From NCBI GenBank assembly GCA_951406725.2, contig OX597827.1, forward strand, positions 22,444,001 through 22,508,000: DNA of 64,000 nt. Reading direction: 5' to 3'. The notes under the pieces were generated by a model that was not told the origin of the DNA, searched no databases, and was given only the letters and a program-made list of their open reading frames with translations. Below are positions 1,391 through 63,662 of this stretch, piece by piece; the first letter of the stretch is position 1, and each line of letters begins with the position of its first letter. The DNA is from Octopus vulgaris. Lineage: Eukaryota. Made by a program: the position numbers and the translations under genes.

Positions 1391-1848
<458 letters not shown>

Positions 1849-2166
1849 TATATATTCATGCATGTATATTTACATATAATGCAATATATTGTAATATACA
1901 TGGGAATGTGTGTATATACTCATACAGTTATAGATAAAAGTACACGTATGTAGACATAAGCAAGCACTTACACATAAATGTGACAGAATGTGCATGTATG
2001 TATATGCATGTATGTACGCATTTGTGAACGTGTAAATGTTTGTGTCTATATAATATGTGTGCATACCCACTAGCTTGACACATGGATCTATGTATATGTG
2101 TGTATGTGTGTATGTGCATGTATTTACATATGTAGTATATATATATACACACACACACATATATAC

Positions 2167-2846: not shown

Positions 2847-3086
2847 TGTATATATACATATATGTATATATACATATATGTATATATATATATGTATATA
2901 TACATATATGTATATATACATATATGTATATATATATATGTATATATATATATATGTATATATATATGTATATATAAATGGCGGTGCCCCAGCATGGCCA
3001 CAGCTCATAGGCTGGAACTGGAATCAATCAATCAATCAATCATATGTATATATATATATATGTATATATATATGTATATATATATG

Positions 3087-6923: not shown

Positions 6924-7182
6924 TCTTTATTTGCCACATGAGGAAAACTTTGGTAACCACGTACTTTAACGTATAAGTTGAGAGAAGGTGGGCTGTAAAT
7001 ACTAATTAATATGTATGAGAAAGATTACAGTATAATTTATTTATCTACACACATACATAGAGGGATGTATATGCATACACATACATATACATATAGCTAT
7101 ATGTATACACATACATGACTGGTTATACAAGCATACTTGCATGTGTGCGTATGTGTATGTATGGAATATATAATATACATAT

Positions 7183-11502: not shown

Positions 11503-11890
11503 TCAGGAGTGGCTGTGTGGTAAGTAGCTTGCTTACCAACCACATGGTTCTGGGTTCAGTCCCACTGCGAGGCACCTTGAGCAAGTGTCTTCTACTATAG
11601 CCTCGGGCCAACCAAAGCCTTGTGAGTGGATTTGGTTGACGAAAACTGAAATTTGGTAGATGTATATATATATGTGTGTGTGCGTGTCTGTGTTTGTCCT
11701 TCCAACGTCGCTTGACAACCGGTGCTGGTGTGTTTACGTCCCAGTAACTTAGCGGTTCGGCAAGAGAGAGACCGATAGAATAAGTACTAGGCCTACAGAG
11801 AATAAGTCCTGGGGTCAATTTGCTCGACTAAAGGCGATGCTCCAGCATGGCCGCAGTCAAATGCCTGATACAAGTAAGGAGTAAAAGAGA
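11503..11890 (+). mobile_element. SINE family A, full length
   Basis: Head, CORE-like block and LINE-like tail as in 1495-1848. Confidence 0.9.
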
Positions 11891-18195: not shown

Positions 18196-20994
18196 ATGTG
18201 AACATGCTCACAAAATCAGAAAACAACACTGCACCCATGACTTTCGAAAAAGTTTTTCACGTTCAGAATTGCTGAAGCATGGAATAAACTACCCGCATCA
18301 GTTGTTAGCTGTCGAGACACTCCATCTTCAAGACTTCCATGCTTCCTGAAATCTGCCAACAGTACACTGTATACAACAATTTCTTTCCTACATCAGATGA
18401 ACCTGTTGAGCTGTTGCCTGGGGAAGTTGATAATGCCCAAATAGTAGTCTATATAATGACTGGAAAAGCTTCGTGGGATGGGTCCCGTTATAAGGAAAAG
18501 GCCCCGTTATGATGAAAAGGGTACTAATCTAGGAATTTGCGAGATGTCGTGCAGTAATTTTTTCGACTTTTTGCGTTGCAACAGCAGCACTTACGACATC
18601 ACTACTACTTATGTCTGCCATTCCGAAAGCGGTGGAGTTTCCTTGGACAACATCAGTGGCAGAGAGAGAGAGAGGAGATCTGCTTGCGGAACATCTGTTA
18701 GCCTTTCTCACAAAAAAGTACGGAGGCTACAGATAGGGATAAGGAGTTGACCGTACGTGACGGATGCCCTTGTTTGTGGGTGCGCGCGCACGTTTGTGTT
18801 GTATCCTTTATGAATATTCTCAAATTATGGTTGTTGTAGACAAATTGATCTGATCAAGTTGAAATCATTTCCTGATTCCGCTTCTTCCCTAGAACTAATT
18901 TGTTCCAGATCCCTTATAAATACTCCGCAGAAACTCACGAATTTAAAAATATATTTCGTTTCCCTTAAAAATTTTAAGGATCACGTTGCGTTAGGTGCTA
19001 CCCTTCAAATATTCGGGTTACCAAACTCAGCTCACAAAAATCCTGAAACGCGTTAACAAGGGTAGACTCGTTGATTTCTCCTGGTTCAAGTTGACATTCA
19101 ATGTCCAGTTGGTCAGCGACATTACTCATAAACACAAGAGTTTCGTTACGCATCGGGTGAGTGAGGTGGATAGAAAGGTTACTCATTTACCAGGAGGTCA
19201 GAAGTACTTGAATTAACTGAGCTGGACATTGTCCCCCAATGACCAAGTGATCATAGAGACACCAAACTGGCTCAAACAGATATGTATTGACCAAGTGGTC
19301 AGAGAAATATTGCAATTTATAAATGGACGCGCAATGGCCTTCAAAGCCAAGCGGTCAGCAGAAGATACACTTACTTAAGTAGCCACTGTCCCGGTCAGTG
19401 GGACACGAGTGGACACTCAGTTGGCAAGTGTAGCAGAATAAAGGTCACTCTTTCCAATTATTGGTTTGTAAAGGAACGGACGGCGGTCAGCAACACTTGC
19501 ACGTGTGGAGGCCTTTTTTGCATGTCAAACATTGCCACCTTGCAACCAGCATCTCCACCACCATCATCATGTGCATTGCTATAATCACAATCATCATCGC
19601 CACCACCATCATCCTCATAACCATTAACACTTCTATCCTTCCAGCCTCCACCATAAAACCCCTCCCCCATTATTATTATTACCACCGCGCCTTAGCCGCC
19701 ATCACCAATGCAACCACAAGCACCACCATCTCCACCAATAATTTTAACACCACCACAGCTAAATTACTAAAACTAAGGAACGCCACCACCCCACCCCCAC
19801 TGCCTACCCTCGCCTCCATTCTCACCACCCCCATCGCCACCCCCACTGCCTACCCTCGCCTCCATTCTCACCACCACCACCACCACCACCACTATAACTA
19901 CCGTAACCACTAGTGTCATCAACACCACCACCACCACCACCACCTCCCTCTTACCGCCACCATCAGCACCATCCACCTCATGGCCACCCACCCAAACTTC
20001 CACACTCCTCAGCCTTCAAAGAAAGCTGGTAGAATCTACAGAAGAAGTTCTTATTGCCCGTGGGGCCGCAATCACACACACACACACATACGCTAGTCTT
20101 ACACAACCAACTACAATGGCCATCACATATGCACACACACACATATGTACACCAACACACACTAGTCTTACACAGCTTACTGCGATGGCTGCCACTAAAC
20201 ACATACATACACCCTTACATATTACACACGCACACACATACACACTTATACATACGCAAACAACAATAGCCACTACACACACATAAACCAACAACAAAAG
20301 CTGCCACACACACGCACACACATAAACTCACGCCCGCACGCACATACATTCACGCACGCACACACAACAATGGCTGCCACACGCACACTCACACACACAC
20401 ACACACACAAACAATGGATGTCAAACACACACACGCACACTCACGCACACACACATACACTCACGCACATACACTCACGCACGCACACACCACAATGGCT
20501 GCCACACACACACAAGCACACTCACGCACACACACATACACACGCACACACAACCCAACAACAATGGCTGCCGCACACGTGTTCAGGCGAATGCTTCTCC
20601 TCGTTGTTCGACTTCAATATTTTTGTTTTCAAGTGAAGCAGGTCACTGCATGTTGTTGTTGTTGTTGGTATTGTCGTCGTTGTTGTTGTTCTTCTCCTTT
20701 TACTATTGTTGTTGATAGTGCTGTTATTGTAATTGTCCATATTGTTGCTTGTGTCTGTTGCCATTTTTGTTGCTGTTATTGTTGTTGTAGTGGTGGCGGT
20801 GGTGAAGGCGGCGGCGGCGGCGGTGGCAGCGGCGGTGGTGGTGGTTGTTACTGCTGTTGTTGTTGTTGTTGTTGTTGCCATTGTCGTTATGTATTTACCA
20901 ACAATGAGGAACATGAAAACAATGTTTATTTTCTCTTATAACAGTAAGACTTTTACACGTGTTTAATGCGTGTGAATTCATGTATATGTATATA

Positions 20995-21400
20995 TTTCTT
21001 TACTACCCACAAGGGGCTAAACATAGAGGGGACAAACAAGGACAGACAAGGGGATTAAATCGATTACAGCGACCCCAGTGCGAAACTGGTACTTAATTTA
21101 TCGACCCCGAAAGGATGAAAGGCAAAGTCGACTTCGGCGGAATTTGAACTCAGAACGTAACGACAGACGAAATACCTATTTCTTTACTACCCACAAGGGG
21201 CTAAACACAGAGTGGACAAACAAAGACAGACAAAGGGATTAAGTCGGTTACATCGACCCCAGTGCGTAACTGGTACTTAATTTATCGACCCCGAAAGGAT
21301 GAAAGGCAAAGTCGACCTCGGCGGAATTTGAACTCAGAACGTAACGACAGACGAAATACCGCTAAGCATTTCATCCGGCGCGCTAACGTGTCTGCTAGTA
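20995..21400 (-). mobile_element. SINE family B tandem dimer
   Basis: Two approximately 185 bp units (tttctttactacccacaagggg...gacgaaatacc). Confidence 0.9.
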
Positions 21401-22039: not shown

Positions 22040-22274
22040 TTAAGGCGGCGAGCTGGCAGAAACGTTAGCATGCCGGGCGAAATGCTTAGCGGTATTTCGT
22101 CTGCGTTACGTTGTGAGTTCAAATTCCGCCGAGGTCGACTTTGCCTTTCATCCTTTCGGGGTCGATACATTAAGTACCAGTTACGCACTGGAGTCGATGT
22201 AATCGACTTAATACCTATGTCTGTCCTTGTTTGTCCCCTCTGTGTTTAGCCCCTTGTGGGTAATAAAGAAATAG

Positions 22275-22318
<44 letters not shown>
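22040..22318 (+). mobile_element. SINE family B, near consensus, (ATT)n tail
   Basis: aaggcggcgagctggcagaaacgttagc...aagaaatagg(tat)n. Confidence 0.9.
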
Positions 22319-22787: not shown

Positions 22788-23283
22788 GAGTGAGCGAGTA
22801 GTGCATGCCATCAAAGTGACACTGGGGTACAAGTATACGAAGTTCAATAAACCCATCATGACTACCCGTCACAATACACCCAGGCACATGCATCACAGGT
22901 GAGCTGGCAGAACCGTTAGCACGCCGGGCGAAATGCTTAGCGGTATTTCGTCTGCCTTTATGTTCTGAGTTCAAATTCCGCCGAGGTCGACTTTGCCTTT
23001 CATCCATTCGGGGTCGATTGAATAAGTACAAGTTACGCACTGGGGTCGATATAATCGACTTAATCCCTTTGTCTGTCCTTGTTTGTCCTCTCTGTGTTTA
23101 GCCCCTTGTGGGTAGTAAAGAAATAGGTATTTCGTCTGTCTTTACGTCCTGAGTTCAAATTCCGCAAAGGCCGACTTTACCTTTCATCCTTTCGGGGTCG
23201 ATAAATTAAGTACCAGTTGCGTACTAGGGCCTCCTCCCCCAAAATGTCGGACCTTCTGCCTATAGTAGAAAAGATTATTATCA
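22785..23283. mobile_element. Family C 3' end (-) fused to SINE B dimer (+)
   Basis: 22785-22895 matches the family C tail; 22897-23283 is head, body, tail 1, body, tail 2. Confidence 0.85.
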
Positions 23284-24571: not shown

Positions 24572-24960
24572 AAAGGAGTGGCTGTGTAGTAAGAAGTTTG
24601 CTTCCCAAGCACACGGTTCAGGGTTCAGTCCCACTGCGTGGCACCTTGGCACTTTGGGCTGACCACTGCATGACACGTGGCACTTTGGGCTGACCAGAGC
24701 CTTGTAAGTGGATTTAGTAGACGGAAACTGAAAGAAGCCCGTCATTTACATGCATGCATGCGTGTGTGTGTGTGTTTGTCCCCTTTCACTGCCGCTTGAT
24801 AACCAGTGCTGGTGTGTTTACGTCCCCCGTATTGTAGCGGTTCGGCAAAAGAGACCGTTTAAGTAAGTACTGGGGGTCGATATATGCGGCTATACATTCT
24901 TCAAGGCGGTGCCCCAGCATGGTCACAGTCTAATGACTGAAACAAGAAAAGGATAAAAGC
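24572..24960 (+). mobile_element. SINE family A with internal duplication
   Basis: Duplicated tggcactttgggctgacca; tail ggcggtgccccagcatggtcacagtctaatgactgaaac. Confidence 0.85.
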
Positions 24961-29527: not shown

Positions 29528-29869
29528 CACATCCACACATTCATTGATGTGTGCGTACAGATGTGCATGCGTGTATTGCACACGTATGTACATTCATATG
29601 CATACACACACACACACACACGTCCATAGGCACATACACCTGTATGTCTGTGTGTTCGATCAATCGAATTAACTTTCCTCTCATACATGAATTGGCTTCT
29701 CTACACTCCAGACATTTCTATCCTGTACATGTGTGTGTGTGTGTGTGCGTGTACGTGTGCGCGCGCGCGTGTGTGTGTGAGTGTGTGTGCGTGCGTGTGT
29801 GCGCATGTGTGTGTGTGTGTCTTTGTGTGTGTGAAGTAAACGATCTTCTTACAGAAGTGTTTATCCTTT

Positions 29870-30258
29870 ATTCTCTTATTCTTTTTACTTGTTTCAGTCA
29901 TTTGACTGCGGTCATGCTGGAGCACCACCTTAAATTTTTTTTAGTCGAAGAAACCGATCCCAGGACATATCCTTTGTAAGCCTAGTACTTATTCTATCGT
30001 TTTCTTTTGCCGAACTGCTAAGTTACGGGAACGTAAACATACCAGTATCGGTTGTCAAGCAATGGTGTTTTGGAGCACAAACACAGACATACACACATAC
30101 ATATTTTACGACAGGCTTCTTTCAGTTTCCGTCTGGCAAATCCATTCCCAACTTCGGCCGGCCCAAGGCTATAAGTAAAATACACTTTCCAAGGTACCAT
30201 GCAATGGGAGTGAACTCAGAACCGTGTGGTTGGGAAGCAAGCTTCTTGCCCCACAACA
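29870..30258 (-). mobile_element. SINE family A
   Basis: Full-length similarity including the LINE-like tail. Confidence 0.85.
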
Positions 30259-31675: not shown

Positions 31676-31948
31676 TTTTGTTTCCGTCATTTGACTGCAG
31701 CCATTCTGGAGCACCGCCTTTGGTCGAACTAATCGACCCCAGGACTTATCTTTTGTAAGCCTAGTATTTATTATATCGACCTCTTTTGCCGAACCGCTAA
31801 GTTACGGGAACATACACACCGACATCGGTTGTCAGGCGATGGTGGGGAGACAAACACAGATAAACTAACACATACACACAAATAAAAATATATATACATA
31901 CGACGGGCTTCTTTCAGTTTCCGTCAACCAAATCCACTCAAAAGGCTT
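31672..31948 (-). mobile_element. SINE family A, 5'-truncated, tail abutting (TA)n
   Basis: Reverse complement ends ggcggtgctccagaatggctgcagtcaaatgacggaaac then (TA)n. Confidence 0.85.
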
Positions 31949-32002
<54 letters not shown>

Positions 32003-33001: not shown

Positions 33002-34283
33002 CCGGGGGTCTCAAAAGTCACTATTTCAGTGGCATTCGATTGTCGCTATATTATCATAAGGATAAGAAGCATCACTTGTGCAAATCTGTGTTTTGACAAA
33101 ATGCTAATTCGTTTGTGTCGATATTTGTGGTGTTTATTTTTATTTCTTCGACCCGATTAACTGAAGATGAACGTGAAAAAAAAAAAAATCGGGTGTTGGT
33201 GTCAACACGAAATCTGAAGGAAGTAGAAATAAATTTGAGGGGAAGTTTCTTAAGAAATTTTCAACAGACAAAGCTATTCGTGAAGTTTCATAAAACCGGA
33301 TTTGTGCATGATGGCAGCCGAACTGGACGTCCAAGGAAATTTGGAAAAAGATTTGAATTGGTTCGAAAACAGGAACCGCAATTATCAACTCGTAGGGCAG
33401 CTAACATGTTGCAAAATCCATGCGCATCAATCCATAGAATTCTATGAAGGAATTTGAACAAAAAAACAAAAAAAAGCCTAATCACATTCAAGTTTTTCAC
33501 AACTTCAGAAGAGGATTATCCCCACAGATCAGCGATTTGCGCTCAGCTTATTGATCAAATTGAAAGAGCCGATTTAATCCACAAAATTCTGCTCAGTGAT
33601 GAAGCGACCTTCCATACATATGGAAAGGCTAATCGTCATAATTGTCGCTTTTGGGGAAGTGAGAAACCAACTGAATTTCTTGAATGGGAACGAGATAGAC
33701 CGAAAGAGAATGTTTGGCTTGGTGTGAATAAGTCAAAGGTGTATGGATCTTTCTTCTTCGCAAAGACTACGGTGTATCCTGATATATTTGAACAATTCCG
33801 CGAACCTCAACTCCGTACAGATGGCATTCTTGATACAGTAGAGTTTCAACACGAAGGAGCGGCGTACCATTATGCAAAGATTGTATGTAATTATCTTGAT
33901 AGACACTTCCCTCGCTGTTGGAATGGTCGTGGGGTATACAACAATGAGCAGCACTCAGATCCATTTTGGCAACGTTAGATTTTTTTCGCTTGGGGATTTC
34001 TTAAATCTATGGTGTACACCAAGAGAAGAATTAGAGATGTAGCAGAGCTCCGACATCTTATTACTGATGCAGTTCAAAACATAAGACCTCAACTGCTGGA
34101 AATGTGTTCCAGGAAGCAATTTATCGCTTTCAGCTCTATCATCCCCACATGATGACAGTGATGGTCATCGCGTGATACACTAATTCTTGGCAGCATATAC
34201 TTCGAAATAAGTATATTAGTCAAATTTAAGCCATTTTTTCATAATTATTTCTCAAAATAGATAGTGACTTTTGAGACACCCTG
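33002..34283 (+). mobile_element. Decayed IS630-Tc1-mariner transposon (DD41D/rosa-like motifs)
   Basis: TIRs ccgggggtctcaaaagtcactat / atagtgacttttgagacaccctg followed by TA; transposase fragments KFHKTGFV..RTGRP, SDEATFH..NRHNCRFWG, FQHEGA, LDFFAWGFLKSMVY with stops and frameshifts. Confidence 0.88.
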
Positions 34284-35759
34284 TATATATAAACAAACAC
34301 ACACACACACATATATATATACATATTTACATGTAAGCACATACATACATATATATACTTTTATCTTGTTTTTTTTTCTTACTTGTATCAGTTATTAAAC
34401 TGCAGCCATGCTGGGGCACCACCTTGAAGAATTTTAGTCCGACGAATCGACCCCATTACTAATTCAAATGTGTCACACTCGTTCGGCCTGACAATTGCTC
34501 TGTGGACTGTTTACCGTCGACAGCGATGAAGTACCCACCAATTTCTGTTGTGTTTTTATATTATATTTTTGAGTTATTATCCATTTCATTCATGTAATAC
34601 ACGTTTGTATGACTTCTATCTGCTTAAGAGGTAGAGTATCTTATGCATTCATCGCACTCTGTTTATGTCTGTATTTTTCTATGGCTTGGTCTGTTACTTT
34701 GTGTACCTATTGTTGATTACTGTTTATTTTGTTCGATGGATTTCTTTATTTAGTGTTTCGTTTGTCACAGAGAATCGAAACGAACTTCTAAGTAGAGATT
34801 CCATCACTGCCATTTTATATGTGTGGATACATGCTGTCTCTACAGGAATTTATTTGTGTCTTTGGTCTAGGCGTATTACGATGCATCTGTTATTTTTATC
34901 TGAATGTTTATCTTGAAATGGAGACATTATGTTGCTTGAAGCTGTATTTACACAGTTTTGGGTGTTAAATTTTAGTAGAGTTCTTTTCTAGTTCTTCTTG
35001 CAATTTATCAATGTCTTCGCACTGTATCCATTACGATTTATTTATCATCTACACTTTTCGTGTGTATCATATATTTATGCCATGGTACTATTCTGTTTTC
35101 TAGTGTTGCCATGGAGAACGCAACGAACGTGGTCTCTATGGCAGAGCCTGAGGCCATTCATCTTTTTTTCTCTTTACCTGACTTGTTTTGTGGACAGCAA
35201 AAGAGATTTGTATCATAAAGGAATTTCTACTCTAATCATTTCTCCCGTATTTTATATGCTATTAAATGTGTTTCGGATTCATTATTTAATGTGGTTTCCG
35301 CTGTTCTTACCATTGGAGCGCAGGTAAAAAGGCATTAAAATTTAAGACGGACATGGTCCAAACTTCAGATCAATCCTTCCTGCAGGTATAATTATAAATG
35401 GTTTTAGCAAGATAGCGTGACACATGAGAAAGGTGTACCTCACAGATATTTTTAGGTAGTTCACGTTGCAGATGGTATCTTAACGAACTGCCGACATTTT
35501 CTATCACAGCAAAGCGGTTTGGAGGCATCTTTATCGTTCTTATTGATCAGTATATCAAAGCGATCACCTGTCCTTCGATAGGGAAGGTCTATCTTCCTAG
35601 ATGGAATGTGATATATCTATCACAGATCCAGAAGGGGCTGCACCTCAAACATGCACATTCCCAGACACGCATGTATATATGCATTATGCATATATATATA
35701 CATATGTATACTTACATTATATATATATATAAATACATGTTCTTGTATACATGAGTACT

Positions 35760-35827
<68 letters not shown>

Positions 35828-35937
35828 TACATATATGTATGAATATATCTATATCTACCTACCTATCTATCTATCTACCTACCTACCTTTCCATCTACAT
35901 ACCTACTACTTACCTACTACTTATCTACGTACCTACT

Positions 35938-36170
35938 TATTTCTTTACTACCCACAAGAGGCTAAACACAGAGAGGACAAACAAGGACAGACAAATGGAT
36001 TAAGCCGATTATATCGACCCCAGTGCGTAACTGGTACTTATTTAATCGACCCCGAAAGGATGAAAGGCAAAGTCGACCTCGGCGGAATTTGAACTCAGAA
36101 TGTAACGGCAGACGAAATACAGCTAAGCATTTCGCCCGGCGTGTTAAAGATTCTGCCAGCTCGCCGCCCT
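35938..36170 (-). mobile_element. SINE family B
   Basis: Near-consensus reverse complement, embedded in (CTAC/CTAT)n. Confidence 0.9.
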
Positions 36171-36641
36171 ATCTACCTACCTATCTATCTATATCTCTAC
36201 CCATCTTTCCATCTATCTCTTTCTCTATCTATCTTTCCAGCTATCTATCTATTTACCTACCTACCTACCTATCTATATCTATGCAGCAGAGTTTTTCATC
36301 CAAGTTAAATTAAATAAGGCCTGGCACCAACCTGGCGCAAAACTCTTCTATCTCTCATTTATTCCTCTCTTTTCAACTTTTCCATCGAGAAGGATACTGT
36401 CCGAAAATTTGGATTTTTCACTCCTCACAGCATTTTCTATGCACAATGTAAGTTTTTCCGGTGCAGACCAGCACCAGACTTTTTGGAGTTTGTTTACTCA
36501 TATATACATTGGCATTAAACATGTAGGTTCGCTTATACAAACACACAGATACACACATATTCACATACATTACGCATGCATTCACAGATATAGATATATA
36601 CCTATATAACAAATAAAATTAAAAACAAAACACAAAGGATA

Positions 36642-39504: not shown

Positions 39505-40082
39505 GGGCGATCTGGCAGAAACGTTAGCACAGTGGGCGAAATGCATAGCAGTATTTCGCCTGCCGCTACGTTCTGAGTTCAAATTCCGCCGGGGTCGACT
39601 CTGCCTTTCATCCTTTCGGGGTCAATTAAATAAGTAGCACTTACGCACTGGGGTCGATATAATCGACTTAATCCGTTTGTCTGTCCTTGTTTGGCCCCTC
39701 TTTGTTTAGCCCCTTGTGGGTAGTAAAGAAATAGGTATTTCGCCTGCCGCTACGTTCTGAGTTCAAATTCCGCCGAGGTCCACATCCTTTCGGGGTCGAT
39801 AAATTAAGTACCAGTTGTGTACTGGGGTCGATCTGATCGACTGTCCCCACTCCCCACAAAATTCAGGCCTTGTGCCTATAGTGGAAAAGAATCGTTACAG
39901 CGCCGAACAGAATGTTTAGCGGCATTTCGTCCTTTAAGTTACGTGTGCGAATTCCGCCGAGGTCGATTTTGCCTTTCATCCTTTCGAGATCGATTAAATA
40001 AAAATCAATTGAACACTGAGGTCGATGTAATTGACTTACCCACCATCCCAAAACTGCTGGCCTTGTGCCAAAATTTGAAATC
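39505..40082 (+). mobile_element. SINE family B multimer (three units)
   Basis: Head, body, tail 1, body, tail 2, degraded third unit. Confidence 0.88.
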
Positions 40083-40348
40083 AATATATATGTATGTATA
40101 TACATATTTATATATATATATGTGTGTGCGTGTCTATATATATATATATATATGTATGTATACATACGTGTGTACATATGTATTCATCTGTGTGTGTGCG
40201 TGTATTAGTATCTATGCGTCTAAAATATCAACGCAAATACTTCAAGCTTATGACGAAAAATGTTTACTTATGACTCCACTGATATCCTAAACGCAAGAAA
40301 CACAAAATAAGTGGTATTTAATCTTATCTTTTAAAGAATTCTTTCCGG

Positions 40349-41236
40349 GATAATCATATGCAGTTTAATGCTGAAAAATTCCAAGCCCTGCGCTACCAGC
40401 GTCCAAAACTGAATATGAAACTTACAGGGTACACCGGACCACGGGGAATTTCAATCCCAGGGCCTAAGTCAGTGTGGGACCTGGGTATCGACATGAGTGG
40501 TGATACCTCTTTCCAAGTGCACATTACCAGGATGGCGACAAAGTGCAGACGACTGGCAGGATGGATCCTAAGAACATTCAGAACTAGAGATAAGGAAACC
40601 ATGATGGTCCTCTGGCGGACATTCGTCCTCAACCGCCTGGATTACTGCTCACAGCTATGGTCACCCACCAGTGTGAAATTAACAGCGGACCTTGAAGCAA
40701 TCCAGAGAAGATTCACAAAGAAGATCGTCTCTTTGCAACATCTCAGCTACTGGGAAAGGTTGAAACAGCTAAGATTCTACTCCCTGGAGAGAAGACGGGA
40801 GAGGTATGCAGTAATATATGTCTAGAAGATCCTGGAAGGAATTGTGCCAAATTTTGGCATTGAAAGCTATACCAATACCAGAAAGGGACGACACTGCACA
40901 ATGCCAAAGATCCCAGCAACGCCATCGCGCTTCAGGACCAGTTACTACAACAGCCTGGATTTCAGGGGCCCACGGCTTTTTAATATTCTCCCAAAGAGCC
41001 TGAGGAACCTGCACAAAGTAGATGAAGGCGTTTTAAAATCAAAGCTGGACCTCTTCCTGTCGAGATTCCCAGATGAACCTACATCACAGCAATAGGTGCA
41101 AATGAGGGTAACTACATCAAACTCCATTCTTCACCAAGTGCCATATATTGGAGGAGGCTCTCAGTAATAACAGTGTAGCAAAACGGCGGTGCATCAGCAT
41201 GGCCGCAGCTATGAGCTGAAACTACAGAAAAAAAAA
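40349..41236 (+). mobile_element. 5'-truncated APE-RT LINE (CR1/L2-like), pseudogenised
   Basis: MQFNAEKFQ...[10 protein letters not shown]...ERRRERY; in-frame stops at 40823 and 41093; 3' signal ggcggtgcatcagcatggccgcagctatgagctgaaac then TA-rich tract. Confidence 0.92.
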
Positions 41237-41619: not shown

Positions 41620-44024
41620 AGGGAATAAATTATTCCAATCTAAAATTCAGTATAATAATATTAGACCGAATTTCGTAATATATAATATATACATATAATT
41701 AATTTAGTGACGAACCACCATTCTACAATTCAGTCAATGAAAAAACCCGTCCAAAACCATGTTGTGAGACATATACCATACAAAATACTAATCTAAAATT
41801 TTAATAATATATAATATTGAACAGTAAGGTTATTACATATAATAGCAAATACTTTTAAAATCACAGCGAATACCATACAAAGAACATTCATCATAAAATA
41901 TTAATCTAAAATCAAATAAATTATAAATTGAACAATAAATTTTAATACAATAATATAATGTATAAAAGTAAGTACTTGTACATCAACTACGCGCGTTTCA
42001 TGGCTGAATTAGGACTATATAAAATCATGTAAGAAACCATATCCAAGTTCATTAGAACGAGAAAATGATTTTAGTCCCAAAAGCAAGTTAATCATCAGGT
42101 CAAATTCCTAAAAAAAAATCCCTAAAAACTAAAAATTTAACTTACCTCATAAGGAATTTAAAAAATAAGGAATAAATATATATATATATATAAAGAAACA
42201 AACCTGTAATGTAACCCCTAAGTTAAAGACGTTAATATTATTAAAAGTTACGAACTAAAATATTCAAATAGAGTATTATTGTGAACATGATTAATTCATT
42301 ATGGAGAAGGTAAATAAACGTAACTACGTGTTAGTGTATAAAGTTAATAAAAGACGTATGTTGATATCGTTTAGAATAAATTTTGAAAGACATGACTTAT
42401 CTGCCGGCGAACTACTCTAGATTAAACCGAAATAAGTGTACTTTAGCATTTATACTCAAAAGTAACGTGATAAATATGGCGTCCATTACCCAGAGATAAA
42501 TACATATTATATTTACTATAATAAAATTATCGACAAAGTATATTGTTTATTGAGTATTTAAAATACTTAAAACCTTTAGATCTACAAAAACAATAACTAT
42601 AACACAAACGAAATTTATGTGCTACGTAAATAATGCTATAAAACATTGTAAGAATGCACATATCGTTGAATTCGTTATCAGTAAAAAAGTAGTTATTTAT
42701 TCTAATTATATATAATTATGTAATGTTTGAAGTGTATTTTAAGCTAATTATATGTATTTAACGCTACTAATCATAACTATAAATTGGTAACTTTTCATGG
42801 GTTTTAAATAAATCAATACATTGTCTATACTTATATAAATAATTTAATTTATGCCACATTTAATATTACGTTCATCTTGGAAGTTAATCAATTGTTTTAA
42901 TAGCTGATAATATCTCAAAGCAAAATTTACTTCCTATTCTATACGATTTAGCCTTACAAACTATTTCCCATTTTAAATCGTATTTTATTCTTTTACATTT
43001 AAGTTCCCAAATGTATTTACTAAGGTCCGTAGAATTCATTAAATACCTGTTCTTAAAAGAATTCATATGTTGGGCCACCTGTGATTTAATTTTATTGGAA
43101 GTCGATCCTATGTAAATAGTATTTATGTTATCATTATTACTATTATTATTATTATCATTCAAAATCACTATACATTTATATAATACGTCCTCATTAAAAT
43201 TTACATTTAGTCTTATCTCTACAATTACAATCAATTGTATTCTGGTCTCCATTGGAGGTATTAATTTATTATTTTAAAACTTATTTAATTAAAATTTATT
43301 AAAGGCTGAAATGATATTGCCAACATAATTAGTGGTGGAAAAAATTTATTGCTTGAAAATATGTCCTTCTTTTTATGGTTCTCTTTAATAAATGTCTTAA
43401 TTATATTTAAAATCTCTTTGATAATGTTAGTTTTAACCTGTATCCCATAGGGAATTATTAGCCATATTTTATTCTTATTATTATTACTTTGAGGTTTATT
43501 GTTCATATTACTAACTACATCGGACTTCAGATGATTCTTAATGTTGTGTTTATTGTTATAGAAGGTGTATGCATCATTTAAATTATCTTTTAAATTATAA
43601 TTATATTCAGAATTGTTGAAAAATTTAATACTATTATTATATCCCGCCTTATGAAGCGCTTCATTATAATGTGGTACATGTTTATTGAATATGTCATAGT
43701 TGGAAGAAAGTAATGAAATTCGATTTCCTATATTATTTGCTAACGCTTTATTAATGGAAGGTGGATGGTTACTCTTAGCATTAATATATTTCAGGTTTTC
43801 GCTAATTTTATAGAAAGGTTGGGTTATAACTGTTATAAAGTTAACATTTACATCTAAGTAATTAACATTGCTATTTACGTTATAAATTGTAATCCTAATC
43901 TTACTGTTCAATACTATATATTATAAAAATTTTAGATTAGCATCTGTATAGTATATGTCTCACAGCATGGTTTTGGACGGGTTCTTCATTGACTGAGTTG
44001 TGGAATGGTAGTTTGTCTCTAAAT

Positions 44025-47644: not shown

Positions 47645-47847
47645 ACTTTTGCCGACTGGACTACTACTCTCAGCTATGGTCTCCCCACCTTATACTACAA
47701 GGATGATAGCAGAGCTTGAAGCAGTCCAACGACATTACGCAAAGAAAATTGCATCAATGGAACGACTGAGCTACTGAGACAGATTGAAAGAGCTACGACT
47801 CTATTTCATGGAAACGAAGGCGTCGTCGAGAGGTACATCATCTGCAA

Positions 47848-48068: not shown

Positions 48069-48777
48069 GGACATCCCTGGATGGGAGGTGACGGCAGCAG
48101 GGAGGGCCAAAAGGATGAGGAAAGCATCCAGAGCCAAATGGAGAAGCCTGGAACACAGGGAAACGATGACACATGTCCAGCTTCCAACACCACAACTGAA
48201 GACCAAAGAGGTGCGATGGCCGCAAGAAAGGAAAGGCACCCTGGAATTGATGGGAAGCAGGAGGTAAAGGGTGACAGAATCAAGGCTAAAGGAAGCCCTG
48301 TCCAGAGAAAGCAGAGGGACCCCAGCAAAAACTGTAAGGGCAGGGAAAGAAACACCTGCAAATTCTACCTGAGGGGGGACTGCTGGTACGGCGTTGAAGG
48401 TGCAAACTGTCGCTTTGCACATCGGAGGCCCTACCAAAACCGCACGGACGCGAGACAGAGGTCCCTTCCCTCAGGGAGAACAAAAACAAAAACAAAAAGT
48501 TAAAAGAAGGGAAAAAAGCGCACTGACCACTACTGAAAGACGGTATGCAGATGTGGTGCGCGGAAACCCAACAGGTGGCCAGCTTCACCCAGATGTGAGA
48601 AGGGCGGCAGCTGAACAGCAGTCTTTTTTGTGCATGGCACAAAAAATTGTTCAGCAGCTGACCTGGCTACAAGCACAAAGCTGGAACTACCACCACATAA
48701 GGCCACCTCCAACAGATGCAGGATGGCCACCACAGACACCAACACCAACACACACACCACAAAAATATTTCTACTGA
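48069..48777 (+). pseudogene. LINE ORF1 C-terminal part with CCCH zinc finger (one frameshift)
   Basis: [22 protein letters not shown]; continues in a second frame RRYADVV...QKYFY*, overlapping the ORF2 ATG at 48723. Confidence 0.7.
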
Positions 48778-51730
48778 ATGTAGGAGGGTTGCTGCGCGGA
48801 AACTGTAAAAAGAAAATTTCATTCCTGAGAGACCTTGTGACATGCAATCAAGCTATATGCATGGCACTCACAGAAACGCATCTTGAACCTGATATAGGTG
48901 ATGCAGAAATACACATGCCGCAATATGCAGTCATACGCACAGATAGAAAAGGGAGGAGCCATGGTGGAGTTGCAATGTACATCCGAGATGACCTCACGCC
49001 CCAGGTCCTGCTGTCATATTCAAACTCAGTATGTGAAACTCAAATTGTACACATAAGACAACTGAATATCGTCATATGCACTACATATCGCCCACCAGAC
49101 GCCCCAAAACACTCAGGCATGTTTGAAGACTGCCTAACAAAAATAGGAGAAGTCCTCACCAACCTTGAACAGCACAACAGTGTATTCTTCATGGGTGACT
49201 TTAACCTCCCCAATGTGGAATGGCCTGGGGGCAGATGCTCCCAGGGATGACACACCATCAGCAGGCACAGGTGGAGTCCCTGCTCCATCTCACAAATACC
49301 TCTTTCATGGAGCAAATAGTTCTGCAACCAACAAGGGCAGATAATATACTGGATCTCTGCTTTACAAACAATATGGATATTATCCATAATGTTAATGTGA
49401 TGCCGACAATGATCTCGGATCACAACATAATAGAGCTGTCTATGTATGGAACAAAAGCCCCCACAGACACACAGCCTATACGAAGCACCCACCATCTCTC
49501 CAACTTAAACTTTCATAAAGCCAACTGGAAGTCGATTGAGAAAGAGATCCTCAAACAGGATTGGCCTGAATGTCTCTCCACACCGGACATAAACATGAAA
49601 CACAAACACTTCATGTCCATAATACAAGCCATATGTGACAAATATGTCCCAATGTGCAGGGCCAGCACACACAAGAATAAAAACAGGATCCCTAGAGAAA
49701 GGAGGATTCTTATGAGACGACGGACAAGGATTGCAAACCGCCTGAGCAAGCACACCAAAAGTGGTGAGAAGTCTCGGCTCGAAAGAATGCTAATGGAAAC
49801 TGAGAAAAGTCTACATCAGTCCCATGAAAAGGAGAGAGCAGATAAAGAAGCTTGGGTAATAGAAAATATAAAATCAAACCCTAAAGCTTTCTTTAAGTTT
49901 GCCAAAGAGACAGCCACAGTGCACCAGAGAATAGGACCTCTTCCAAAAAGATGGCTCTCTCACAGGAAATCCCACGAGGATAAGTGAAATACTGAACGAA
50001 CAGTTCCAAAGTGTGTTCACTACACCTCTAGGACACAGGCAAGTAAACAACCCAGAAGAATTCTTTGCCACTTTACCAGCGGCCAAAGAGACAAAAATTG
50101 AGTACATCAACATCGAAGAAGATGATATCACACTAGCCATTGATGAGATTGACACAAACTCAGCTGCTGGACCTGATGGATTCCCAGCGATCCTTCTCAA
50201 ATCGTGCAAACGAGCCCTTGCAAAACCGCTACAGCTTCTTTTTCAGAGCTTTCTTGCAAGTGGTAAGCTCCCAGTCAAACTGAAAGAGGGGGTAATATGC
50301 CCTATCCATAAGGGAGGTAGCAGAGCAGATGCTAAAAATTATAGGCCTATCTCTCTGACCTCACACATCAGCAAAGTCATGGAACGAATAGTCCGTAAGA
50401 AACTAATCATGTTCCTTGAAGAAAATGACTTACTGTCTGACACCCAGCATGGATTTCGACCAGGTAGAGGCTGCCTAACACAGCTCCTGCAACACTATGA
50501 CTGGGTGTTGAAACAGCTACTAAATGGCTCAAATGTGGATGTAATATATCTTGACTTTGCAAAAGCCTTTGATAAAGTCGACCATGGTATGATCTGTCAC
50601 AAACTGCGTGGTCTCGGCATAGGCGGGAAACTTGGAGAGTGGCTGCACAACTTCCTAAAAGACAGAAAACAGGCAGTTGTGAGCAATGGAGCCACCTCCA
50701 GGGAAACGCAAATAACAAGCGGTGTCCCACAGGGCACTGTCTTGGGGCCACTGATGTTCATAGTGGCCCTTTCAGACATGCCTTCAGTTGCTACGATGAC
50801 CACCCTTGCTAGCTATGCAGATGACACAAAGGTCTCCCACGCAATACAGAACCCTGAAAATATTGCGCATCTGCAACATGAGCTGGACACAATATACAGG
50901 TGGGCTGAGGACAACAACATGCAGTTTAATGCAGGTAAGTTCCAGGCCCTGCGCTACTGGCACACAAAGGTAAATGACGTGAAGACTGGATACACTGGCC
51001 CAGGAAGAATTGCAATCCCTGAGTCAAAATCAGTGCGTGACCTGGGCATTGACATGAGCAATGATGCATCTTTCCAAATGCATATTGCTAATCTGGTGAT
51101 AAAATGCAGACGGCTAGCTGGATGGATTCTCCGAACTTTCAGAACAAGAGAGAAGGAGACACTGATGGTCCTATGGAAAACATTTGTCCTCAGCCGCTTG
51201 GACTACTGCTCCCAACTTTGGTCACCACACAATATAAAACAAACAGCAGAACTCGAAGCAACTCAGAGAAGCTACACAAAGAAAATCGTCTCAATGCAAA
51301 ATGTCAGCTACTGGGAAAGACTGAAGGTATTAAACCTCTTCTCCCTGGAGCGGAGGCGGGAGAGATATGCAGTAATATACATCTGGAAAATCCTGGAGGG
51401 TCTTGTCCCAAACTTTGGCATTCAAAGTTACTCCAACCGCAGAACGGGCGCCGCTGCGTGGTGCCAAGGATTCCAACATCACCATCAAAATACAGGTCCA
51501 GATACTGCAACAGCTTGGGTTTCAGAGGACCACAGCTTTTCAACATCCTCCCTAAATGCCTGAGAGACTTACATGGTGTGGATGTGGGTTTCTTTAAAAC
51601 TAAACTGGATCTCTTCTTGTTGGGAGTCCCAGATGAACCTACCTCACGACAGGAGACACGGATGCGGGCAGCAGCATCGAACTCCCTTGTTGATCAAGTG
51701 CCACGTATCAGAGGTGGATTCACAAACTAG
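48723..51730 (+). pseudogene. LINE ORF2: apurinic endonuclease plus reverse transcriptase, three frameshifts
   Basis: APE motifs LLNVGGL, LTETHL, HGGVAMYI, YRPP, GDFNLP, LDLCF, SDHN; RT motifs [43 protein letters not shown]; shifts near 49230, 49945 and 51450. Confidence 0.93.
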
Positions 51731-51803
51731 TGTGGCTCATTCAGCGGTGGTGCCCCAGCATGGCCGCGGCCTTCGGGCTAAAACATTTTTAAGGATTTTA
51801 AGG

Positions 51804-59336
<7,533 letters not shown>

Positions 59337-59338
<2 letters not shown>

Positions 59339-61314
59339 AATATGGGCTATAGACAACATAAAAACTAACCCCAGAGCTTTCTACAGGTATGCCAAAGAAA
59401 CGGCTACAGTGCACTGTAGGATAGGGCCACTCCTTGAAAAGGATGGCACACTCACAGGAAAACCAATGAGGGTAAGTGAAATACTGAATGAACAATTCAA
59501 GTGTGTTTTCACTCCACCCCTTGGGCATTTCCAAATCAGCAATCCAACTGACTTCTTTACCACTGCAGATATAGAATCAGAGGCGGCGACGATAAGTTAC
59601 ATCGAGATAAAGGAAGACGATGTAATAAAGGCTATAGATGAAATGAAAATAGACTCAGCTACTGGCCCCGATGGATTCCCGGCAATCCTCCTAAAAGTAT
59701 GTAAGAGAGTCTTAGCAAGACCACTGCAGTCCCTCTTTCAGAGCTTCCTTGCAGCTGGCAAACTTCCAAGGGGACTGAAGGAAGGTAAAATATGCCCTAT
59801 TCATAAAGGAGGTAGCAGAGCGGAGGCAAAGAACTACAGACCTATCTCTCTGACCTCACACATCAGCAAGGTCATGGAACGAATAGTCAGAAGGAAACTA
59901 ATCACCTTCCTTGAAGAAAATGACTTGCTGCCTGACACCCAACATGGTTTCCGACCAGGAAGAAGCTGCTTAACTCAGCTCCTGCAGCACTATGACTGGG
60001 TGCTGAAACAACTGCTCAACCACTCAAATGTGGAAGTCATATATCTCGACTTCGCAAAGGCCTTCGATAAAGTCGATCACGGAATGATATGTCACAGGCT
60101 GCGTGATCTTGGCATAGTTGGAAAACTAGGAGAATGGCTTCACGACTTTCTGAAGAATAGAAGTCAGGTGGTAGTAGCCAATGGGGCCACTTCCATTAAC
60201 ACGCAAATAATGAGTGGTGTTCCACAGGGCACTGTTTTGGGACCACTACTGTTCATAATGGCCCTCTCAGACATGCCCTCAGCCACGCAGAGATCCACGA
60301 TCACAAGTTATGCAGATGATACAAAAGTTTCACAGGCAATACAGAACCCTGAGGACACTAAACACCTGCAATGTGAGCTGGACGAAATATACAAGTGGGC
60401 TGAAAAGAATAGCATGCAGTTCAATGCTGGAAAGTTTCAAGCTTTATACTATCAGCATGCAAAACTGAATGCAATACCCAATGAATACACTGGACCCGGA
60501 GGGATTGCAATCCCAGAGGCACAATCAGTGCGTGACCTGGGTATTCACATGAGTGATGACGCGACCTTTCATGTACATGTTGCTAAACTGACAGTGAAAT
60601 GTAGACGGCTGGCTGGCTGGATTCTTAGAACCTTTAGAACAAGAGAACAAGAAACCATGATGGTCCTCTGGAAGACACTTGTCCTAAGCCACTTTGACTA
60701 TTGCTCTCAGCTATGGTCACCATCCAGTGTCAAGTTGATCACAGAACTTGAGGCGATCCAACGAAGCTACACAAAGAAGATAGCCTCTATGCAGAATGTA
60801 AGCTACTGGGAAAGACTCAAGAGATTAAAATTATACTCCCTGGAGCGTAGGCGGGAAAGATATGCCATAATATACATCTGGAAGATCCTGGAGGGAAGTG
60901 TCCTGAACTTTGGCATCGAGAGTTACACAAATGCCAGAACTGGGCGCCACTGCGTGGTGCCTAGGACTCCAAACCTGCCATCAAGATGTAGGACAAGATT
61001 CTGTGATAGCCTGGGCTTCCGAGGCCCACAGCTCTTCAATATCCTCCCGAAGAACCTGAGAGACCTGCATGGGGTGGATACAGATGTCTTTAAAATGGAG
61101 CTGGATCTCTTCCTGTCAGGTGTCCCAGATGAACCAACTTCACGGCAGGAGGGGCAGATGAGGGCAGCTGCATCGAACTCTCTCATGCACCAAATAGCAG
61201 TTGCTAGAAAGCCTCCATGAAGTGAAACCAAGTAGCAACACCAAAATGGCGGTGCCCCAGCATGGCCACAGCTCATAAGCTGAAACTAGAATCAATCAAT
61301 CAATCAATCAATCA
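59337..61314 (+). mobile_element. Young 5'-truncated APE-RT LINE with uninterrupted RT frame; (AATC)n tail
   Basis: WAIDNIK...VARKPP* open to 61220; near-identical to 53643-55610 in inverted orientation; TA/TATG arrays on both sides. Confidence 0.95.
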
Positions 61315-62894: not shown

Positions 62895-63110
62895 TTGTTT
62901 GTCCTCTCTGTGTTTAGCCCCTTGTGGGTAGTAAAGAAATAGTTATTTCGTCTGTCTTTACGGTCTGAGTTCAAATTCCACAGAGGTCGACTTTGCCTTT
63001 CATCCTTTCGGGGTCGACAGATTAAGTACCAATTGCGTACTGGGGTCGATCTGATCGACTGGCCTCCACCCCCTTAAAAATTTTGGGCCTTCTGCCTAGA
63101 GTAGAAAAGG
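62895..63110 (+). mobile_element. 5'-truncated SINE family B dimer
   Basis: Tail 1 ...aagaaatagttatttcgtctg joined to body and tail 2. Confidence 0.88.
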
Positions 63111-63662
63111 TTAATTTATATGCACTCTTCGCTCCGTTTCCATATATTTGATTTCACTCATAAAGCTTTGTTTAAAGCTACAATATTGAATGTGTCACGC
63201 TGTAGGACCGAACCCGTATATATCAGAAAATCACCACAATCAAATCCCTTCGCAACAAACTACAAGCCATAGAGCGTGCATCAGCCAGTCAGTGAAATAA
63301 TCGTGTTTGAATTAAGCATGAAAAGTTCCTCATTGAAATTGCTTCACAGGAGACAAAACTACGCTTTCCCGTCGTTTGAAGGAAGCGATATTTATAGCGC
63401 AGAAAACCAAAATAAATCTAGATACGTAAATGTTAGCTGATAACGCTACCATTCTATATGGAATTACACAAAAGAACTGCGAAATTAAATATAGAAGACT
63501 AACCTAATTTCAACACACGCAGTTCATGTAGAATAAACTATGAAAATATCAAGAAATTCACCGCTAAACATTTGTTATTATTAGCTAAGCGGGAAAACTG
63601 AATTAGTAATTAAATATCTTCATGAAAACATGTTATATTTCAATAATAATAATAATAATAAT

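What the first reader, a model, noticed from the sequence alone, without database searches (positions are those of the whole stretch)
61244..61314. Shared two-hairpin 3' signal with covariation links the LINE to SINE family A
Seen: GG(C/T)GGTGC(C/T)CCAGCATGGCC(G/A)C, then a hairpin, then AAAC ends LINE copies (41185, 51746, 53665-53706, 61248, 2980) and SINE A copies (1790, 11833, 24905, 29890-29930, 31680-31718, 34380-34425). The terminal hairpin changes sequence but keeps pairing: cagtca-aa-tgactg, cagct-cata-agctg, cagct-cata-ggctg, cagct-atg-agctg, and ggcc-TTCG-ggct (a cUUCGg tetraloop). Known: stringent LINE/SINE pairs share 3' stem-loops recognised by the RT. Inference: this LINE mobilises the abundant family A SINE, several copies of which also abut (TA)n.
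Basis: partly seen in the sequence, partly recalled or inferred. Interest (0 to 1): 0.7.

Follow-up and report, generated by a model that had tools for sequence, protein, structure and literature searches.

The report
SINE shares tail with sister LINE
A very abundant short repeat (a SINE) in what is likely an octopus genome ends in the same 39-base tail as a whole group of LINE retrotransposons, and it likely used that predicted two-hairpin tail to borrow their copying enzyme, more likely from a now-broken sister family than from the young LINE at these coordinates.

Summary
A 39-nt tail (hairpin 1, hairpin 2, AAAC) ends all 5 LINE copies and all 6 SINE copies named, plus one more SINE. It is genome-wide: 163 hits in 1 Mb of random DNA (145 SINE A), none in the reversed control.

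Covariation is confined to two pairs of hairpin 2. Hairpin 1 is conserved, not covarying.

The inference needs correcting. At least six LINE families carry the tail. The family at 61248 is younger than the SINE (median 0% versus 2.9% divergence) and lands next to (TA)n (lineage a 65 of 74; SINE 28 of 89).

A sister family, LINE-d, absent from this window, fits better in tail (49 of 56 positions versus 43 of 59), terminal repeat, age and 3' flanks. It is rare, and all 13 other copies seen carry stops.

Verdict: an ordinary stringent CR1-group LINE/SINE partnership that I did not find described for octopus. The exact driver is unproven.

The scan noted other SINE–Tx1 tail pairs in this genome; look-ups with this tail and this SINE found nothing.

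The parts
61248..61286 (+). 39-nt shared tail of LINE family a1: predicted hairpin 1 (61248-61267), predicted hairpin 2 (61269-61282), AAAC
   Evidence: (MFE -17.5, z -2.67)
61290..61314 (+). family-a terminal repeat (AATC)n, followed by a (TA)-type array to 62091
59343..61314 (+). 5'-truncated LINE-a copy: RT part open to the stop at 61220, no endonuclease domain, so not autonomous
53644..56681 (-). LINE-a copy (99% to a full-length copy), endonuclease and RT in two frames; tail at 53705-53667; (TA)n beyond
48363..51806 (+). LINE family b copy; tail 51746-51784 with UUCG loop, own terminal repeat, then (TA)n 51807-53643
40358..41235 (+). 5'-truncated LINE family c copy; tail 41185-41222 with altered loop 1 and 3-nt loop 2, A-rich end
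2977..3041 (+). tail-only LINE-a fragment inside a (TA)n array
1495..1850 (+). full-length SINE A (young subfamily A1): A-box-like 1505-1515 and B-box-like 1548-1558 motifs (by eye, consensus recalled), CORE-like stretch, tail 1790-1828, (TAAAAGAG)-type repeat
11504..11890 (+). SINE A1 copy, tail 11833-11871
24574..24960 (+). SINE A copy of the older A2 type, tail 24905-24943
29867..30255 (-). SINE A copy, tail 29929-29891
31678..31949 (-). SINE A copy, tail 31718-31680, directly followed by (TA)n
34360..34455 (-). 5'-truncated SINE A2-type copy, tail 34423-34385

Best explanation
The 39-nt tail shared by at least six LINE families and SINE A is likely the RNA handle that the ORF2 protein of this likely CR1-group LINE clade binds before reverse transcription, and SINE A likely borrowed that enzyme, most likely from the sister branch D/E (family d for the young SINE wave) rather than from family a1 at 61248. 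Shown: the shared tail and its sharp 5' boundary, conserved pairing with free loops, family-specific terminal repeats, and the age and flank profiles. Inferred: Pol III makes the SINE RNA; ORF2 binds the hairpins in trans; its endonuclease nicks near TA; the terminal repeat pairs with the target to prime copying; the SINE slowed once its matching LINE family decayed, while families a1 and b kept amplifying without it.
For: Tail identity to SINE A1 over positions 1-56: d 49/56, e 44/56, f 43/56, a1 43/59, c 43/59, b 38/56. Only the D/E branch (support 99/96, d nested in e) ends in an 8-nt TAAAAGAA repeat like the SINE's TAAAAGAG. Loop-1 position 9 is T in d 38/38 and A1 91/92 but in 1/74 a, 1/19 b, 1/22 c. 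Ages on comparable non-CpG scales: full-length A1 median 2.9% (n=50 random), d 2.9% (n=38), a1 0.0%, b 0.7%. Only 17 exact matches to a 164-nt young-SINE head, where 1,000 insertions of a1 age would give about 600; their 3' halves differ from each other. All 13 non-self d copies among 150 scored carry 1-4 stops and no open frame over 473 aa, whereas a/b-type hits include 1,039-aa frames. 3' TATATA: A1 28/89, d 18/38 (p=0.11) versus a 65/74, b 17/19, and not explained by SINE age (16/46, 13/46, 19/46 by tercile). Non-microsatellite on both sides: A1 22/76, d 12/33, a+b 0/42. Hairpin 2: 8 cells with double change versus 3.2+-1.1 in shuffles, 0/500, and at most 1 in slid controls. Precedent: zebrafish L2 ORF2 reads the cognate loop strictly while stems are partly exchangeable (PMC4176376, abstract and passages).
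Against: LINE-d is rare: 12 of 30 loci fetched from the 32 matches, and 0 of the first 30 of the 5,411 LINE ends, against about 260,000 A1 copies (extrapolated from 92 per Mb). Loop 2 differs between d and the SINE at 3 of 4 letters. The old SINE A2 (15% diverged) already had the same stem 2 and is closest to family f (36/39), so the tail predates d. Position 9 also reads T in 6/27 e, 5/24 f and 16/39 A2 copies, so it changes easily. Families a2, a3 and c (1.4-2.5%) overlap the SINE in age and are more numerous. The d sample is mostly best hits and biased young, and on the short-window measure A1 is older than d (4.7% versus 2.9%, p=1e-4). Flank similarity may come from the similar terminal repeats rather than a shared enzyme. 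5' flank counts were inconsistent: a 21/30 and d 10/32, A1 15/55, but a 15/31, d 10/33, A1 37/76 with another junction method. Only one young SINE haplotype was tested for recent copies. No binding or mobilisation was measured.
Confidence: 0.45

Rival explanations
1. Recognition is clade-wide: any ORF2 of this clade binds invariant hairpin 1 plus any hairpin 2, so the abundant a2/a3, b and c families drove SINE A. The SINE then slowed for its own reasons, such as loss or silencing of Pol III source copies.
For: Hairpin 1 is nearly invariant across all families while loop 2 varies freely. a2, a3 and c overlap the SINE in age. a and b make up 28 of the first 30 LINE ends. SINE 3' flanks are still enriched for TATATA over background (31% versus 10.5%, p=7e-8).
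Against: a2/a3 flanks are 13/14 TA-rich versus 28/89 for A1 (p=2e-5). The SINE's terminal repeat and loop-1 letter match d, not a, b or c. No sign of SINE copies as young as a1 or b in the one haplotype tested.
Confidence: 0.33
2. The true partner is a LINE family I did not sample, with exactly the SINE's loop 2 and terminal repeat; d is only its nearest sampled relative.
For: One old copy (L277, family m) ends in AGTAAAAGAG like the SINE. Loop 2 of the SINE matches no family majority. My patterns needed an intact ORF2-end motif 70-130 nt upstream.
Against: No family with the SINE's loop 2 emerged among the 30 loci or the 30 loci; single copies with SINE-like loops were isolated. Only 2 of 163 random tail hits had RT sequence upstream, both known lineages.
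Confidence: 0.17
3. The tail is an inherited relic and SINE A was moved by an unrelated enzyme (Tx1, RTE or other), or the match is chance.
For: Other LINE groups are active in octopus genomes (PMC13282606, Table 1).
Against: Pairing of hairpin 2 is intact in the majority sequences of both SINE subfamilies. The SINE lacks poly(A), ends in a clade-type short repeat and shares the TA junction. The reversed controls give 0 hits.
Confidence: 0.05

Closest known systems
Stringent L2-clade pairs: eel UnaL2/UnaSINE and zebrafish ZfL2-1/ZfL2-2 (PMC4176376, abstract and passages; PMC1636434, search listing only; PMC3747384, passages and table rows)
   Same: SINE and LINE share a short 3' stem-loop plus short terminal repeats; stems tolerate change; sister LINEs differ in loop and repeat.
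   Different: Here there are two tandem predicted hairpins, at least six sister families in one genome, and no experimental test.
Bivalve BivaCORE-SINE1 and BivaV-SINE2 with CR1-14_CGi (PMC4824008, passages and supplement parts 1 and 3)
   Same: Mollusc tRNA-headed SINEs with a CR1-type tail, stem-loops and compensatory changes.
   Different: The bivalve SINE tails printed in the supplement do not resemble this tail by eye.
Bivalve HCD SINE-LINE partnerships with CR1, CR1-Zenon, L2, Nimb (PMC11481361, passages)
   Same: 35-61 bp tail homology; age profiles often do not match, and the authors warn that a sibling LINE may be mistaken for the partner.
   Different: No octopus or cephalopod mention in its main text (0 occurrences).
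Octopus CORE-SINE OR1/OR2 (Ohshima and Okada 1994; not read; cited as OR1 in PMC4824008 and as OR2 in PMC4758252 and PMC5804259)
   Same: Octopus tRNA-derived SINE with a CORE domain; tRNA-Core is a main octopus SINE class (PMC8967140, passages).
   Different: I could not obtain the OR1/OR2 sequences, so identity with SINE A is untested.

Membership tests
Stringent LINE/SINE pair | SINE 3' end homologous to the LINE 3' end | tested here: met
   29-35 of about 39 core positions shared with every family; homology stops at the 5' edge of hairpin 1
Stringent LINE/SINE pair | Conserved stem-loop with compensatory changes | tested here: met
   hairpin 2: 2 of 5 pairs with double changes; hairpin 1 conserved without covariation; rows are related and were chosen by me as nearest to family majorities
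Stringent LINE/SINE pair | Short terminal repeats instead of poly(A) | tested here: met
   a, b, d, e and the SINE end in family-specific repeats; c and f end in A-rich runs
Stringent LINE/SINE pair | Concurrent activity with family a1 (61248) | tested here: not met
   a1 median 0.0%, SINE A1 2.9%; 17 exact young heads
Stringent LINE/SINE pair | Concurrent activity with family d | tested here: inconclusive
   medians agree on the full-length measure (2.9% each) but the d sample is biased and the short-window measure differs
Stringent LINE/SINE pair | ORF2 binds and mobilises the tail in trans | not testable with these tools
   needs binding and retrotransposition assays
CR1-group LINE | ORF2 with apurinic endonuclease plus RT and no RNase H | tested here: met
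   1,039-aa ORF: PF03372/PF14529 and PF00078 only
CR1-group LINE | RT phylogeny with named CR1, L2, Zenon, Crack, Daphne references | not testable with these tools
   homologues were almost all unnamed; the assignment rests on recalled C-terminal motifs
CR1-Zenon | No ORF1 and a poly(A) tail (PMC13343379, passages) | tested here: not met
   family a has an ORF1 of about 300 aa with weak CCCH/Torus and Myb-like hits and an (AATC)n end
tRNA-derived CORE-SINE | tRNA-derived head with A and B boxes | tested here: inconclusive
   box-like motifs by eye; ARAGORN and Rfam found no tRNA
tRNA-derived CORE-SINE | CORE central domain | tested here: inconclusive
   an 11-nt stretch after the B box matches BivaCORE-SINE1 at 10 of 11 letters by eye; no profile comparison run

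The most novel reading that the evidence does not exclude
One genome holds a natural experiment on LINE-SINE specificity. The SINE tracked one LINE branch step by step (two tail changes from A2 to A1, both to the state of LINE-d), outnumbered it roughly a thousandfold, and stalled when it died, while sister families with the same fold but other loops and terminal repeats escaped the parasite, moved into (TA)n and are still amplifying.
Probability: 0.2. Interest if true: 0.62.

Novelty: new member of a known kind. Interest (0 to 1): 0.4.

Why it matters
It names a likely driver clade for a SINE with about 400,000 tails (extrapolated) in a group where SINE partners were not discussed in the papers I could read. 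The set of sister families with one fold but different loops and repeats gives ready-made natural variants to test which part of a tail an ORF2 protein reads, and whether LINEs can shed a SINE by changing it. The mechanism itself is textbook.

Tried and rejected
Distant relatives: the tail profile found nothing in 80 metagenome LINE loci at 25-49% protein identity, so no deeper covariation could be had.

A pattern for a candidate tail seen once (L128) gave 0 matches. A shorter-spacer pattern (41 matches) returned mostly internally deleted copies of known families.

Target-site duplications: lengths were not clearly above mismatched-pair controls for A1 or d, and could not be measured for a, b, c. 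Clustering of 5' truncations at the hairpin boundary: 4 of 119 SINE tails within 13 nt, too few LINE tails; inconclusive.

Expression: no RNA holder listed; not used as evidence. Contigs of four runs under four organism labels cover both LINE-d and the SINE tail; depth was not used as a copy number.

The idea that A1 took d's whole tail by one template switch was rejected: loop 2 and the repeat stay A2-like and intermediates exist.

Literature: nine searches ran. None listed a paper on an octopus SINE-CR1 tail pair. Not available: Gilbert and Labuda 1999, the 2015 octopus genome paper, the SINEBase supplement. Ohshima and Okada 1994 and 2005, Repbase and Dfam were not consulted. Any of these may already record the pair.

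Full report
Setting. The window lies in a 2.8-Gb animal assembly. The nearest named homologue of the LINE protein is from Argonauta hians (62%), so the host is likely an octopod. Family letters (a-f, m, A1, A2) are my own labels.

Observation. The motif is present at all eleven places named and at one more. Four of the LINE places follow the end of an ORF2 with RT; 2977-3041 is a tail-only fragment. The SINE places follow a body of about 340 nt. Homology between SINE and LINE begins exactly at hairpin 1 and covers 39 nt. A profile built from nine window tails gave 163 hits at E<=0.01 in 100 random 10-kb stretches (145 SINE A, 2 with RT upstream, 16 unassigned) and none in the reversed sequence. 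That extrapolates to about 400,000 SINE A tails.

Structure. Four of five single tails fold into two hairpins with z about -2.7 to -2.8; the family-b tail has the same fold but z -0.18. On ten representative copies, 119 of 120 cells pair. Hairpin 1 has no double change (5 of 7 pairs invariant, 2 with wobble changes) while its loop varies. Hairpin 2 has two pairs that switch between C-G and U-A: 8 cells versus 3.2+-1.1 in shuffles (0 of 500) and at most 1 in slid controls. The rows are related and I chose them as nearest to family majorities; a first alignment with poorer representatives gave 7 cells. On the tree (backbone partly unresolved) the changes amount to roughly three to five independent events. 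This is inference, not an R-scape result.

The LINE clade. An exact pattern joining the ORF2 end to the tail matches 5,411 places, control 0. Of the first 30 fetched, 15 were lineage a, 13 family b and 2 the D/E branch. Requiring the SINE's stem letters left 32 matches; 12 of the 30 fetched (two near-duplicate pairs among them) formed a distinct family d at about 60% protein identity to a. Further searches defined c, d, e and f. Each family has its own loop 2 and terminal repeat. Full-length family a has an ORF1 of about 300 aa with weak CCCH and Myb-like hits and a 1,039-aa endonuclease-RT ORF2. CR1-group membership rests on this layout and on recalled motifs; no named references were available. 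For family statistics I kept copies with at least 150 nt at 78% or more to a reference; 44 of 469 tails stayed unassigned and 6 of 137 random SINE copies fitted neither subfamily.

Which family fits the SINE? Tail: d is closest to the young SINE A1 (49 of 56; a1 43 of 59), shares its loop-1 letter (38 of 38 and 91 of 92) and has the same kind of 8-nt repeat. Age: a1 0.0%, b 0.7%, a2 1.4%, a3 2.1%, c 2.5%, d 2.9%, e and f about 8%, SINE A2 15% (the LINE sets are largely best hits and biased young). Random full-length A1 copies have a median of 2.9%, with 5 of 50 within 1%; on the short window A1 is 4.7%. A 164-nt head of one young subfamily has 17 exact matches genome-wide, whose 3' halves differ from each other, so that subfamily had no burst as recent as a1, for which 31 of 40 hits were 100% identical and 150 of 150 protein hits identical. 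Integrity: all 13 non-self d copies among 150 scored carry stops. Flanks: TATATA within 46 nt follows a 65 of 74, b 17 of 19, c 13 of 22, d 18 of 38, e 16 of 27, f 16 of 24, A1 28 of 89, A2 11 of 39, background 10.5%. The SINE value does not depend on age. Counts for 5' flanks were inconsistent between two methods.

Against d. It is rare (12 loci, none in the first 30) next to about 260,000 A1 copies. Loop 2 does not match. The old SINE A2 is closest to f (36 of 39) and older than every family sampled, so the SINE took its tail from an ancestor of the clade. The loop-1 letter changes easily. Flanks may be set by the RNA's terminal repeat rather than by the enzyme. Families a2, a3 and c were active at the same time as A1. 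I therefore put d or its branch at 0.45, clade-wide recognition at 0.33 and an unsampled family at 0.17. That the tail is the clade's recognition signal used by the SINE is likely under all three (about 0.95 together).

Mechanism (inferred from PMC4176376, abstract and passages). ORF2 would bind the hairpins through the region between endonuclease and RT, nick near TA, and prime on the terminal repeat. After the repeat the next letters are TA in 34 of 43 parsed A1, 18 of 26 d and 60 of 66 a copies, though TA also begins the d and SINE repeat unit. The loop-1 match and loop-2 mismatch between d and A1 suggest that loop 1 or the repeat, not loop 2, would carry family specificity. This is untested.

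Comparison with print. Stringent pairs are common, with CR1 and RTE predominant (PMC3747384, passages and table rows; 'octopus' 0 occurrences). Bivalve CORE and V SINEs have CR1 partners with stem-loops, but their tails differ from this one (PMC4824008, passages and supplement parts 1 and 3). PMC11481361 (passages) reports mismatched age profiles and the sibling-LINE pitfall. PMC13282606 (part 1 of 3 and passages) reports a SINE and LINE expansion in Octopus vulgaris and 13 active CR1 families, with 'partner' and 'tail' at 0 occurrences. PMC8967140, PMC9068888, PMC4758252, PMC5804259, PMC13343379 and PMC3531059 were seen as passages only. Nine searches listed no paper on this pair, but the original octopus SINE papers and the repeat databases were out of reach and may record it.

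Verdict. Real, genome-wide and of a known kind. Interest 0.4.

Noticed in passing
L132, - strand, tail at 7054: The 3' end of a tRNA-like sequence with a run of T is fused directly to a family-a tail, followed by (AATC)n and (TA)n: a small-RNA/LINE-tail chimera.
   Followed up: no
window 53644-56681 (-) and 59343-61314 (+): Two family-a copies, 96.6% identical, point away from each other across (CA)n and (TA)n arrays at 56682-59336.
   Followed up: no
window 51807-53643: A 1.8-kb (TA)n array lies between the 3' ends of a family-b and a family-a copy that face each other.
   Followed up: no
window 20993-21398, 22041-22275, 22898-23274, 35934-36171, 39506-40083, 62895-63113: A second abundant short repeat family with internal tandem duplications of about 184 nt and no match to this tail.
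   Followed up: no
L254, - strand near 2154: A more distant LINE (38% at the C-terminus) with a different tail, (AAATG)n repeats and a (TA)n flank.
   Followed up: no
L277 (- 1116) and L259 (+ 2446): An old LINE family (m) with a shorter spacer; the L277 copy ends like the SINE's terminal repeat.
   Followed up: partly
window 2977-3041; L067, L090, L201, L035: Several LINE fragments consist of the tail alone, starting within a few bases of hairpin 1; a truncation hot spot was not established.
   Followed up: partly
L378 1500-2500: The 5' region of full-length family a is an AT-rich array of tandem repeats.
   Followed up: no
window 43285-43920 (-) and 33448-33978 (+): Two non-repetitive open frames (211 and 176 aa) without Pfam hits; the second looks by eye like a decayed transposase fragment.
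   Followed up: no
window 47651-47822: A short, old fragment similar to the LINE ORF2 (about 70% to copies at 40633, 51193 and 60696) without a tail nearby.
   Followed up: no
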